From IMG/VR virus record IMGVR_UViG_637000107_000010: a stretch of 64,000 nt of DNA; one strand, written 5' to 3'. Position numbers: made by a program. Positions 3,001-6,000 of this stretch are shown piece by piece. Positions within the stretch are counted from its first letter, which is position 1, and the number at the start of each line of letters is the position of its first letter. The stretch is from a virus. Lineage: Duplodnaviria > Heunggongvirae > Uroviricota > Caudoviricetes.

Positions 3001-6000
3001 GTAAATCTCTTTATCCTGGTTGTCACAGAATAAGCCCGGTAAAATACGGGCTTATGAACGACATCTCTTCTGACGACATCTTCCTGCTGAAACAGCGCCT
3101 GGCCGAACAGGAAGCGCTGATCCACGCCCTGCAGGAAAAGCTGAGCAACCGGGAGCGCGAAATAGACCATCTGCAGGCGCAGCTGGATAAACTCCGCCGG
3201 ATGAACTTCGGCAGTCGTTCCGAAAAAGTCTCCCGCCGTATCGCACAAATGGAAGCCGATCTGAACCGGCTTCAGAAAGAGAGCGATACGCTGACTGGTA
3301 GGGTGTATGACCCGGCAGTACAGCGTCCGTTGCGTCAGACCCGCACCCGTAAGCCGTTCCCTGAATCACTACCCCGTGACGAAAAGCGACTGTTGCCTGC
3401 GGCGCCGTGCTGCCCGAACTGCGGCGGTTCACTGAGCTATCTGGGCGAGGATACCGCCGAACTGAACCGCCCCGGTTTTCCTGGAGAGTGTTTTATCTGT
3501 GAACTCAGGCTGCCAGATCATCGTTTCCGATGGAAGCATAATAAGCTTTTTCTGCTTCTGCCGGAGGAGTATGGCCCAGCCTTCCCAGCAATCGTCGATT
3601 GTTATACCAGTCCACCCACGTTAGTGTGGCCAGTTCCACTTCTGCACGGTTTTTCCAGCTCTTACGGTGTATTACCTCCGCTTTGTAAAGACCATTGATG
3701 CTCTCAGCCATCGCGTTGTCATACGAGTCGCCTGTACTCCCTGTTGATGCCAGTAATCCGGCTTCTTTTAGTCGCTCCGTATAGGCCAGTGACACATACT
3801 GAGAGCCTTTATCGCTGTGATGGATGGTGCCAGACGGACGACGGGCCCACAACGCCTGCTCCAGCGCATCCAGCACGAATGTCGTTTCCATAGACGATGA
3901 GACCCGCCACCCCACGATGTATCCGGCAAACACATCAATGATAAACGCCACATAGACGAAGCCCTGCCATGTGCTGACGTAAGTAAAATCAGCCACCCAC
4001 AGCTGGTCAGGTCGTTCTGCCACGAACTGACGGTTTACGCGGTCGCCTGCGGCAACGGCTTTCCGGCTGATGGTCGTACGGACCTTTTTACCCCGGAGAA
4101 CACCGGCAAGTCCCATAACCGCCATGAGACGTGCCACTGTACATCTGGCCACCCTGATTCCTTCCCGTAACAACTGACGCCAGACTTTACGCACACCGTA
4201 CACCTGATGATTTTCATCGTATACGCGCTGTATTTTTCTCTTCAGCCAGTCGTCGTGCTGCGCACGGGCNCTGCNTTTATCCGGATGATGTCGCTGTTGC
4301 TGACAATGGTAATACGTTGACGGGGCAATATGCAGTTCGCTGCATACCGGTCCGACCCCGTACTGCTCACGCAGCTTATCCAGCAGTGGCATCATTTTTT
4401 CCAGAGGCGGTCGAACTCCGCCTTCGCAAAATAAGCGNAAGCCTGGCGAAGGATATCGTTACTGCGGCGCAGTTCACGATTTTCACGTTCCAGCTCTTTC
4501 AGACGCTGACGTTCAGCGCTGGTGAGCCCACCATCACCGCCCCCGGTATCCCGCTCATGCTGGCGAACCCAGACACGCAGAGTCTCCGGCGTACAGCCAA
4601 TCTTTGGGGCAATGGAACAAATTGCCGCCCACTGTGAGTCATATTCATCCTGACTTTCCAGAACCATACGAATCGCCCGCTGACGGACTTCGGGGGAAAA
4701 ACGAGTATTTTTAGTCATCCTGTTTACCTCTTTCTCAGGGAGTTTAGTCTCCAGGATTTCCGGGGCGGTTCACAGGGTAATCACGCAGGTGGTGATACTG
4801 GATGCGGATAAAAAGCAGATACAGTGCGTGGTAAGACCGCTGCAAATCCTGCGTGCTGACGGGACGTGGGAAAATATTGGCGGGATGAANTANCCCGACA
4901 GCTTCACAAAAACCGGAGTCCGGCTCCGGTTTTTGTTGTCATGTATGGGGGCTGTTTGTTATGACTCCCTGTGTTTGGAATGAATATTTAAATAGGGAGT
5001 TTTGTCATGCCAGTTAACATCAGCTATTGCATCCAATTCATTTTCCACCTGAATGCAGGTTCTTCGTGCTCAAATGGCCGCCAGTGGCGGTGGAGAAATT
5101 ACAGTAGGCGGGCAGACGGTCCGTATCACATATAGTGAAACGGATGGTCGCTTTCTGGCGAGTGGGGGCAATAACAGTTTGCTTTCTGGATTATTACTTA
5201 CAGGGCTTAATGGTGGTCCTGAAGCGCTCAGGGATATAATGTTAAGAATGGTTTCAGGTTCAGGTAACACACAATCACATGGTGATATTGAGGGGAAAAT
5301 ATCACAATGTAAGTTTTCTGTTAATACGGAGAGCCTTCAGTGTCCATCCGAGGCGGTTCGATGCCCAATTATACTGGATAAACCAGAAGAAGGTGTGTTT
5401 GTTAAAAATTCAGAAGGTTCTTTGGTTTGTACCTTATTTGATTCGGTTTCTTTTTCTCATTTGGTTCGCGACGGTGGGAAGCACCCGCTAACACGAGAAC
5501 CAATAACNGTCATCAATGATTGTAAGTCAAGAACAATGTATTTATGACCAAACCAAAGGAAACTTTGTCATAAAGGATAAGTGAAATAAATATTACCCAA
5601 GCTATATGTTAACTGCCAGTTGCTTATATGAAATGCTACAGATGTTCAGGGTATAAGGATGTGGTAATTGGTGTACTGGATGCAGCTAAAAAGCATATAC
5701 AGTGAGTGGTGAGGCCGCTGCAAATCTGGCGTGCTGACGGGGAAATATTGGCGGGATGAAATAGCCGACGGATTCACAAAAACCGGAGTCCGGCTCCGGT
5801 TTTTGTTGTCATGTCAGGGAGATGTTTGTTATGAAGCCCAGAGGAAATATTTATCTGTATGAAGGAATATGGTAATGCCTGGATTAGTATCATATATATC
5901 ATCGACTTCATTCGCGAATGAGATGGCGGAGATGCGTCAGCAGGTAATGGAAGGGCAGATTGGTGGATTTCTCCTGGGAGGGGAGAGAGTTAGAGTTTCT

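What the first reader, a model, noticed from the sequence alone, without database searches (positions are those of the whole stretch)
3462..4772. IS629 copy joins a truncated IS66 tnpC to tail-fibre-end/NleG DNA: footprint of a large deletion
To the left of this IS629 copy is IS66 tnpC cut after codon ~136; to its right is a diverged copy of the tail-fibre downstream ORF 3' end and terminator, followed by nleG genes. There is no target duplication. Upstream, the IS66 element has itself cut endolysin R. Everything normally found between R and the tail-fibre end (Rz, packaging, head and tail genes) is missing from this prophage remnant, consistent with IS629-mediated deletion or recombination.
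Basis: partly seen in the sequence, partly recalled or inferred. Interest (0 to 1): 0.55.

Follow-up and report, generated by a model that had tools for sequence, protein, structure and literature searches.

The report
Assembly chimera around a real IS629 scar
The IS629 junctions are real and already known, but they belong to a different, degraded prophage of E. coli O157:H7 EDL933 (the one at ssrA), and their link here to the nleG2-4'/nleG7 genes is most likely a repeat-driven mis-join in the 2001 reference assembly, so no new deletion occurred in this prophage.

Summary
The sequence reads as described. IS629 lies at 3463-4772 (1310 bp, 25-nt inverted repeats). It cuts ISEc8 tnpC after codon 136, and ISEc8 cuts endolysin R. 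The right flank is the last 39 bp of the tail-fibre C ORF, a hairpin and then nleG pseudogenes. There is no target duplication.

The arrangement is probably not biological. The window maps to the 2001 EDL933 record (AE005174, about 1,867,573-1,931,572), where this copy was catalogued as IS.47 and never PCR-verified. The left junction occurs in 182 complete genomes, in every context inspected in prophage Sp17/CP-933Y at ssrA. The exact right junction occurs once each in six EDL933-lineage long-read assemblies, and lies in CP-933Y in the two inspected. There IS629 is a tandem, which the window collapses.

From 4908 onward the window follows prophage Sp12-equivalent, which keeps intact tail genes in the EDL933 and Sakai assemblies inspected. 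Ambiguous bases at 4890 and 4893 fall on the first two sites that distinguish the two source loci. The left arm hops between paralogues in the same way.

The deletion interpretation holds only for CP-933Y, where it is already known. The local context is an assembly chimera (confidence about 0.85). Interest is low.

The parts
1..919 (+). 3' end of the SASA/DUF6645 esterase gene upstream of the lysis cassette. It carries an extra C at 708 (frameshift) and Ns at 410 and 416.
   Evidence: SNPs at 184 and 513 are of Sp12-eq/CP-933Y type, and the SNP at 621 is of ynfA-prophage type. The N at 410 falls on a site where CP-933Y (A) differs from the other copies (G).
1368..1574 (+). Class II holin S.
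   Evidence: WP_000411805-type. The 935-1364 spacer and the SNP at 1385 match only the ynfA-side prophage of EDL933.
1576..1923 (+). YdfR/DUF1327 gene. The N at 1652 falls on the only site between 1385 and 2146 that distinguishes CP-933Y (T) from the ynfA type (C).
1974..2187 (+). Lysozyme R, first 71 codons, cut by ISEc8. SNPs at 2146 and 2162 are CP-933Y-specific.
2188..3462 (+). Left 1275 bp of ISEc8 (IS66 family): tnpA (about 2280-2660), tnpB (2657-3004) and tnpC' (3054-3462, 136 codons).
   Evidence: The same proteins at Sp17 loci carry Pfam HTH_Tnp_1, TnpB_IS66 and LZ_Tnp_IS66.
3463..4772 (-). IS629 (IS3 family), catalogued as 'IS.47' of the 2001 EDL933 record. It is a collapse of the real tandem: a 1087-bp partial copy plus a full copy.
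   Evidence: Position 3476 is T, as in the partial copy next to ISEc8. The right end is that of the full copy.
4773..4907 (+). Crossover zone. 4773-4889 is identical in CP-933Y and Sp12-eq. The Ns at 4890 and 4893 are the first two sites that distinguish them. From 4908 the window is of Sp12-eq type.
   Evidence: alignment of the window with L004, L006, L003, L009 and L007.
4906..4938 (.). Terminator-like hairpin flanked by A and U tracts, downstream of the tail-fibre C ORF.
   Evidence: The consensus scan missed it.
5053..6942 (+). Sp12-type effector cargo: nleG2-4' (5053-5547), nleG3' remnant (about 5869-6300) and nleG7 (about 6292-6942).

Best explanation
The window is a piece of the 2001 shotgun assembly of E. 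coli O157:H7 EDL933 (AE005174, about 1,867,573-1,931,572). In that assembly a real, already known IS629/ISEc8 deletion scar was spliced into the wrong prophage.

The real scar belongs to the degraded ssrA prophage, called Sp17 in Sakai and CP-933Y in EDL933. The splice put it into the ompW-ydfJ prophage region (CP-933O, equivalent to Sp12 plus Sp11). The mis-join used two repeats that both loci share: holin-YdfR-R on the left, and the last 117+ bp of the tail-fibre C ORF on the right.

In the true genome, CP-933Y reads Q-esterase-S-YdfR-R'::ISEc8(tnpC cut at codon 136)::IS629 partial (1087 bp)::IS629 full::tail-fibre-C remnant-nleG'-espW-nleG8-2-espM2-ssrA. The Sp12-equivalent keeps about 22.7 kb of lysis, packaging, head and tail genes. 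Part of that stretch (13.6 kb) is a 99.7% duplicate of the ynfA-side prophage, a repeat that Sanger shotgun reads would struggle to resolve.

Shown here:
- the source of each junction half;
- the absence of the window's arrangement from long-read assemblies;
- the collapse of the IS629 tandem;
- the ambiguous bases at sites that distinguish the paralogues.

Inferred:
- that the cause is the assembler rather than the biology of the 2001 stock;
- that the real scar arose by IS629-mediated flanking deletion or by recombination between two IS629 copies. Both leave one IS copy with no target duplication.
For: 1. Source. Rump et al. list IS629 'IS.47' in EDL933 at 1871035-1872344 with flanks GATTACCCTG/GTTCGGCGGT, and 'IS.26' at 1896355-1897664 with flanks ATATGCGGAT/CCCATTTCAT. 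Both flank pairs are found at window 3463-4772 and 28783-30092, and the 25,320-bp spacing is identical.
2. Left junction. It matches at 100% in 182 genomes, and lies in Sp17/CP-933Y in every context inspected.
3. Right junction. An 80-bp probe across it hits only six of 5,426 genomes at 100%, once per genome. All six are long-read assemblies of the EDL933 lineage. In CP008957 and CP120944 the hit lies in CP-933Y next to espW and ssrA.
4. Right arm. Window 4772-26539 is 99.8% identical to the Sp12-eq/Sp11-eq region of CP008957. There, and in CP120944 and Sakai, J-Lom-tail fibre is intact and there is no IS629 at this point. 229 genomes carry this flank, and none has a contiguous match to the IS629 junction with the window's Sp12-type flank.
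5. Ambiguous bases. The Ns at 4890 and 4893 coincide with the first two CP-933Y/Sp12-eq differences. The Ns at 410 and 1652 coincide with CP-933Y-specific differences.
6. Left arm. It switches paralogue type three times within 2.2 kb.
7. IS629 tandem. The window's single IS629 has the left-end SNP of the partial copy and the right flank of the full copy.
8. Repeat. 13.6 kb of Sp12-eq is 99.7% identical to the ynfA prophage. Latif et al. describe gaps, more than 6,000 ambiguous calls and a large duplication when they compared their assembly with the old record.
9. Wider pattern. No complete genome holds window 1-9000 or 26000-45000 in one place. Further along, the window joins Sp4-type, CP-933V-type and Sp11-type segments at another IS629, again with clusters of Ns.
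Against: No reads from the 2001 project could be examined, so a real rearrangement private to the sequenced stock is not formally excluded.

Ambiguous calls at paralogue-distinguishing sites would also arise if a true second copy of the junction existed and its reads co-assembled with those of CP-933Y.

Not all Ns are explained. Position 416 and the three Ns inside IS629 are ordinary low-quality calls.

Site 1652 differs between two EDL933 assemblies of CP-933Y (YdfR is WP_000731241 in one and WP_000731259 in the other), which weakens that single marker.

The 2001 assembly was checked against optical maps (from my own knowledge, not verified here). A net difference of 14 kb might have been noticed.
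Confidence: 0.85

Rival explanations
1. Real gene conversion or double crossover in the stock sequenced in 2001. The R'::ISEc8'::IS629 block of CP-933Y was copied into the Sp12-equivalent through the flanking homologies. It replaced about 22.7 kb of late genes, and the rearrangement was later absent from other stocks.
For: Homology exists on both sides: about 820 bp at 99% or more on the left, and 117 bp identical (219 bp at 97%) on the right. O157 lambdoid prophages are highly similar to one another. They are known to recombine, which I state from my own knowledge. The reads could not be examined.
Against: The junction is single-copy, and the Sp12-eq tail-fibre end upstream of nleG2-4' is present, in three EDL933 assemblies; the single-copy junction also holds in ATCC 43894, strain 277 and RM8376. 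The window collapses the IS629 tandem. The left arm is a three-way paralogue mosaic. The same window has a second IS629 with flanks from two other prophages, plus an indel-rich, N-rich stretch. That pattern fits assembly problems, not a single clean conversion.
Confidence: 0.08
2. ISEc8 and then IS629 inserted into this very prophage (Sp12-equivalent), and IS629 deleted everything from tnpC codon 136 to the tail-fibre end in situ.
For: The window shows an IS629 without target duplication, sitting between a truncated ISEc8 and the tail-fibre end, with all late genes missing.
Against: It would need independent events identical to the nucleotide to those in CP-933Y: the same ISEc8 site in R, the same IS629 cut in tnpC, the same private SNPs (2146, 2162, 3476) and the same right breakpoint. 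Sp12-eq is intact in the long-read assemblies inspected.
Confidence: 0.03
3. A large chromosomal inversion of about 1.68 Mb, formed by recombination between the oppositely oriented CP-933Y (3.57 Mb) and Sp12-eq (1.885 Mb).
For: The two loci lie in opposite orientations in CP008957. Prophage-mediated inversions are known in O157, which I state from my own knowledge.
Against: An inversion would put CP-933Y sequence everywhere to the left of the crossover. Instead, window 621-1385 is of ynfA-prophage type and position 812 is not of CP-933Y type. The window ends in ydfJ' as expected for the uninverted locus. Rump et al. list another IS629 with the same GATTACCCTG flank under 933Y, at 3.55 Mb of the same record.
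Confidence: 0.02

Closest known systems
Prophage Sp17 (Sakai) / CP-933Y (EDL933) at ssrA, with R::ISEc8'::IS629::tail-fibre remnant
   Same: The ISEc8'|IS629 junction is identical (100% over 400 bp). The R|ISEc8 junction and the private SNPs are the same. In the EDL933 lineage the IS629|CAGGGTAATC right junction is also the same.
   Different: In the real locus the DNA after the shared 117 bp continues into nleG', espW, nleG8-2, espM2 and ssrA. IS629 is a tandem of 1087 + 1310 bp there. The window has one IS629 and continues into the Sp12 cargo.
Prophage Sp12 (Sakai) / Sp12-equivalent half of CP-933O (EDL933)
   Same: From 4908 to about 11,300 the window is 99.7-99.8% identical to the right end of this prophage: nleG2-4', nleG3', nleG7, IS256::ISEc8 and dinI. 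Sp11-equivalent follows.
   Different: The real Sp12-equivalent has intact R, Rz, terminase, capsid, portal, tail, J, Lom and tail-fibre genes, and no IS629 at this point. The window lacks 22,705 bp (CP008957 1,862,716-1,885,420).
IS629/IS3-family flanking deletions and IEE-promoted IS excision and deletion in O157 (Ooka 2009; Kusumoto 2011)
   Same: An IS629 sits at a deletion junction with no 3-bp target duplication. In the EDL933 lineage there is a further nested IS629 with loss of 223 bp of IS and 312 bp of flank.
   Different: Those events are real genome changes. The join in the window is best explained by assembly. The mechanism of the original Sp17 deletion cannot be told apart from recombination between two IS629 copies.
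Repeat-induced chimeric or collapsed contigs in Sanger-era assemblies of prophage-rich genomes
   Same: The switches happen inside repeats. Ambiguity codes fall at sites that distinguish paralogues. A tandem IS is collapsed. The arrangement is absent from long-read assemblies of the same strain.
   Different: Read-level proof is not available here.

Membership tests
IS629 (IS3 family) | An element of about 1310 bp with imperfect terminal inverted repeats | tested here: met
   3463-4772 is 1310 bp. The inverted repeats are 25 nt and 88% complementary.
IS629 (IS3 family) | Two overlapping ORFs: orfA with an HTH domain and orfB with a DDE/rve domain, joined by a frameshift | tested here: met
   orfA is 4392-4718 and orfB is 3505-4395, on the minus strand. 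The same proteins at Sp17 loci carry Pfam HTH_Tnp_1 and rve. RefSeq annotates a programmed frameshift in the identical copies.
IS629 (IS3 family) | High identity to reference IS629/IS1203 copies | tested here: met
   99.5-99.6% identity to copies in Sakai, EDL933 and other strains. The differences are three Ns and two local miscalls.
IS629 (IS3 family) | A 3-bp direct target duplication, as expected after a simple insertion | tested here: not met
   The flanks are AAC and CAG. Sakai's Sp17 copy also has none (flanks GTGCGCCATC and GTTCGGCGGT). This is expected when the IS marks a deletion or recombination junction.
ISEc8 (IS66 family) | tnpA-tnpB-tnpC gene order with a terminal repeat starting GTAAGCG | tested here: met
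   2188 onward reads GTAAGCGTACAGCC. tnpA, tnpB and the first 136 codons of tnpC are present. The stretch is 99.9-100% identical to full ISEc8 copies.
ISEc8 (IS66 family) | An 8-bp target duplication | not testable with these tools
   The right end of this copy is missing. The other ISEc8 in the window (about 7492-9939) does show an 8-bp duplication of its IS256 target (overlap with L005 9116-9123).
IS-associated deletion scar in a prophage | Genes present in intact relatives are missing exactly between the IS end and the flank | tested here: met
   This holds for Sp17/CP-933Y, which has no Rz, packaging, head or tail genes. For the Sp12-equivalent it holds only in this assembly.
Assembly chimera through repeats | The arrangement is absent from independent long-read assemblies of the same strain | tested here: met
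   The junction is single-copy in three EDL933 assemblies (CP008957, CP124740, CP120944) and lies in CP-933Y in CP008957 and CP120944. The Sp12-eq tail-fibre genes are intact in CP008957 and CP120944.
Assembly chimera through repeats | The switch points lie inside sequence shared by the source loci | tested here: met
   The right switch lies within 4773-4907, of which 117 bp are identical. The left switch lies within 1385-2146 of the S-YdfR-R repeat.
Assembly chimera through repeats | Ambiguous consensus calls at positions where the paralogues differ | tested here: met
   Positions 410, 1652, 4890 and 4893. On the right flank the chance that both Ns fall on the five substitution sites among 219 positions is about 4e-4 (my calculation).
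Assembly chimera through repeats | Read-level evidence: no clone or read spans the join | not testable with these tools
   Reads are not available. Rump et al. could not design specific primers for IS.47, so it was scored 'ND'.

The most novel reading that the evidence does not exclude
The EDL933 stock sequenced in 2001 really carried a prophage-to-prophage gene conversion. The IS-scarred R'::ISEc8'::IS629 block of the ssrA prophage overwrote about 22.7 kb of late genes in the Sp12-equivalent. That would be a rapid, stock-specific inactivation of one prophage by a scar copied from another.
Probability: 0.08. Interest if true: 0.35.

Novelty: not a real feature. Interest (0 to 1): 0.1.

Why it matters
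The value is mainly practical. The 2001 EDL933 record was the standard O157:H7 reference for years. Around this IS629 it mis-describes at least one prophage.

Anyone using the old coordinates (CP-933O, 'IS.47', 'IS.26') for IS629 typing, prophage gene content or effector linkage would draw wrong conclusions. They would take the nleG2-4'/nleG7 prophage to be tailless and IS-scarred, and might think EDL933 has an extra private IS629 site.

The underlying biology is already well described: Sp17/CP-933Y is degraded, and IS629 and ISEc8 erode prophages. The one small real novelty is the tandem IS629 in CP-933Y with an extra 312-bp loss. It is found only in the EDL933 lineage and could serve as a lineage marker.

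Tried and rejected
- I searched for the whole 9-kb neighbourhood, and for 26-45 kb, in 5,426 complete genomes. No single-place match turned up. That pointed away from a natural arrangement.
- I tried to fetch NC_002655 from the collection. It is not held.
- I looked up the tnpC'-IS629 read-through protein to locate the source contig. The nine places shown all have the Sp17 left-arm context (one has a different right flank), and only 24 of 173 index blocks were read. The result was uninformative about the source.
- I searched the literature for an explicit statement that CP-933O is misassembled and found none. The source was identified instead from the IS629 site table of Rump et al..
- The consensus terminator scan found nothing at 4773-5100, although folding shows a strong hairpin.
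- I considered a 1.68-Mb inversion and an in-situ deletion. I rejected both on SNP patterns and on the single-copy junction.
- I checked whether the Ns inside IS629 mark paralogue differences. They do not. They are local low-quality calls next to two private miscalls at 4234 and 4236.
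Full report
**What is in the window**

The window is E. coli O157:H7 prophage DNA that ends in the chromosomal gene ydfJ' (62717-64000). It contains 122 ambiguous bases.

IS629 runs from 3463 to 4772 (1310 bp). Its terminal inverted repeats are 25 nt long, and orfA and orfB lie on the minus strand.

To its left, an ISEc8 element starts at 2188 inside lysozyme R (1974-2187, 71 codons). Its tnpC (from 3054) is cut at 3462, after 136 codons.

To its right lie, in order:
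- the last 39 bp of the 270-bp tail-fibre C-terminal ORF;
- a strong terminator-like hairpin;
- nleG2-4', nleG3' and nleG7.

The flanking triplets are AAC and CAG, so there is no target duplication.

**Where each half of the junction really lives**

A 400-bp probe across the left junction (ISEc8'|IS629) matches 182 complete genomes at 100%. In every context I inspected it lies in the ssrA-integrated prophage. This prophage is Sp17 in Sakai, where the annotation reads 'ISEc8 partial' and 'IS1203', and CP-933Y in EDL933.

An 80-bp probe across the right junction (IS629|CAGGGTAATC...) matches only six of 5,426 genomes at 100%, once per genome. The six are three long-read EDL933 assemblies, ATCC 43894, strain 277 and RM8376.

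In CP008957 and CP120944 that junction also lies in CP-933Y. The order there is:
- R'-ISEc8 tnpA/B/C';
- an IS629 partial copy (1087 bp);
- an IS629 full copy;
- a tail-fibre-C remnant;
- nleG', espW, nleG8-2, espM2 and ssrA.

Sakai-type Sp17 has one IS629 and 312 more bases of tail-fibre DNA.

The window's single IS629 carries the left-end SNP of the partial copy (T at 3476) and the right flank of the full copy. It is therefore a collapse of the tandem.

**Where the window leaves CP-933Y**

From 4772 to 26539 the window is 99.8% identical to the Sp12-equivalent right end plus the Sp11-equivalent left part of CP008957.

At that locus, CP008957, CP120944 and Sakai have intact J, Lom, tail fibre and tail-fibre C ORF, and no IS629. 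229 genomes carry this flank, and none has a contiguous match to the IS629 junction with the window's Sp12-type flank.

An alignment of the window with both EDL933 loci shows the following:
- 4773-4889 is identical in CP-933Y and in Sp12-equivalent.
- The Ns at 4890 and 4893 fall exactly on the first two differences (G/A and A/G).
- From the indel at 4908 onward, and at 4946, 4949 and 4952, the window follows Sp12-equivalent.

The left arm behaves in the same way:
- Up to 558 it is of Sp12-eq/CP-933Y type. The N at 410 falls on a CP-933Y-specific site.
- From 621 to 1385 it is of the type found in the ynfA-side prophage. This includes the whole 430-bp spacer at 935-1364.
- The N at 1652 falls on the only discriminating site in between.
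- From 2146 it is of CP-933Y type.
- An extra C at 708, absent from all four paralogues, frameshifts the esterase gene.

**Identity of the source**

Supplementary Table 2 of Rump et al. 2011 lists IS629 sites in the 2001 EDL933 record:
- 'IS.47' at 1871035-1872344, with flanks GATTACCCTG and GTTCGGCGGT;
- 'IS.26' ('933O') at 1896355-1897664, with flanks ATATGCGGAT and CCCATTTCAT.

Both flank pairs are found at window 3463-4772 and 28783-30092, and the spacing of 25,320 bp is identical. Window position p therefore corresponds to AE005174 position p + 1,867,572.

The authors could not design specific primers for IS.47, IS.26 or IS.28, and scored them 'ND'. The join was therefore never PCR-verified.

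Latif et al. 2014 re-sequenced EDL933 because the old record had a gap and more than 6,000 ambiguous calls. They found a large duplication when they compared their assembly with it.

**Why an assembler would do this**

In CP008957, 13.6 kb of the Sp12-equivalent lysis, packaging and head region is 99.7% identical to the ynfA-side prophage, and a further partial copy exists.

The window omits 22,705 bp of Sp12-equivalent (CP008957 1,862,716-1,885,420). It puts in their place 2,585 bp from CP-933Y. CP-933Y shares the S-YdfR-R repeat on the left and the tail-fibre-end repeat on the right.

From the esterase gene to ydfJ', the window is a net 14.07 kb shorter than CP008957.

**The same pattern elsewhere in the window**

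- The second IS629 (28783-30092) has a Sp4-type left flank and a CP-933V (Stx1 phage) right flank.
- 28783-36162 is CP-933V-like at 98.6% identity, with 46 gap openings and many Ns.
- 35705-54052 is of Sp4/CP-933M type. Its 41377-47400 part is 99.9% identical to CP008957 1,277,158-1,283,181.
- 59463-64000 is the Sp11-equivalent right end.
- No complete genome holds 26-45 kb in one place.
- Rump's 'IS.28' in 933Y pairs the CP-933Y flank GATTACCCTG with the same downstream flank as IS.15, which Rump et al. assign to Sp14. This hints at a reciprocal mis-join, which I could not check.

**Mechanism of the real scar**

In Sp17/CP-933Y, ISEc8 inserted into R. An IS629 then came to lie between tnpC codon 136 and the tail-fibre C-terminal region, with no target duplication. 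All Rz, packaging, head and tail genes are gone.

Asadulghani et al. list Sp17 as lacking morphogenesis and packaging functions, with a defective lysis function.

[quoted passage not shown] Recombination between two IS629 copies would leave the same footprint, and the sequence cannot tell the two apart.

In the EDL933 lineage, a second IS629 sits at position 1087 of the first. A further 223 bp of IS and 312 bp of flank are missing.

**Verdict**

The deletion scar is a known feature of Sp17/CP-933Y.

Its link to the nleG2-4'/nleG7 prophage in this window is, with about 85% confidence, a repeat-driven chimera of the 2001 assembly.

A real stock-specific gene conversion (about 8%) cannot be excluded without reads. 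Novelty and interest are low.

Noticed in passing
window 28783-30092 and flanks (26.5-36.2 kb): A second IS629 ('IS.26' of Rump et al.) has a Sp4-type left flank (ATATGCGGAT) and a right flank from the Stx1 phage CP-933V (CCCATTTCAT). The stretch 28783-36162 matches CP-933V (protease', portal, terminase, Rz; inverted relative to the surrounding prophage genes) at 98.6% with 46 gap openings, and Ns are dense at 26-32 kb. It looks like a second chimeric join in the same assembly.
   Followed up: partly
window 35705-54052: The lysis (inverted), ISEc8-in-nu1 and packaging-to-tail genes here are of Sp4/CP-933M type (99.2% to strain 319's Sp4 across the stretch; 41377-47400 is 99.9% identical to CP008957 1,277,158-1,283,181). 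They are not the Sp11-equivalent late genes that the long-read EDL933 assembly has at this locus, which are only 94-96% identical.
   Followed up: partly
window 54162-59463: The J-Lom-tail fibre stretch is only about 97.8% identical to any EDL933 copy I fetched. There are 29 Ns at 58-60 kb, just before the window returns to the Sp11-equivalent right end at 59463. This is probably another mixed-paralogue consensus.
   Followed up: no
window 708: An extra C, absent from all four paralogous copies, frameshifts the esterase (SASA/DUF6645) gene. It is most likely a sequencing error, not a pseudogene.
   Followed up: yes
L004 9201-11596 (CP008957 CP-933Y); also L013 and L022: A real feature found only in the EDL933 lineage: a tandem IS629 (a 1087-bp partial copy followed directly by a full copy), with loss of 223 bp of IS and 312 bp of tail-fibre DNA relative to Sakai-type Sp17. 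The resulting right junction occurs in only six of 5,426 complete genomes and could serve as a lineage marker.
   Followed up: yes
window about 7492-9939 within 7096-10760: A full ISEc8 on the minus strand is inserted into an IS256-family element (ISEic2) downstream of nleG7, with an 8-bp target duplication. The same insertion is present in the Sakai, EDL933, 9.1_Anguil and Balcarce_24.2 loci inspected, while strain F3113 has the uninterrupted IS256. This copy contains several indels and Ns that break tnpC into fragments in the window only.
   Followed up: partly
window 4790-4964 and 5669-5834: The module of about 175 bp formed by the tail-fibre-ORF end plus the terminator is repeated, at about 86% identity, in front of the next nleG pseudogene. 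It looks like a cassette boundary that recurs between nleG genes.
   Followed up: no
window 4234, 4236, 4270, 4275: Two T-for-C differences, private to this IS629 copy, lie next to two Ns. No other IS629 copy examined has them, so this is a local low-quality stretch, not a variant IS.
   Followed up: yes
L004 7317-7661 versus L022 2761-3105: Two long-read EDL933 assemblies disagree on the YdfR allele in CP-933Y (WP_000731241 versus WP_000731259; the site corresponds to window 1652). The cause could be gene conversion between prophages, or a polishing artefact from multi-mapping reads.
   Followed up: no
Rump et al. suppl. Table 2, IS.28 (AE005174 3,550,226-3,551,537): In the old record, the IS629 of CP-933Y pairs the true tail-fibre flank (GATTACCCTG) with GTACTTCTCC, the same downstream flank that Rump et al. 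list for the Sp14 site IS.15. This may be the reciprocal mis-join of the one in this window.
   Followed up: no
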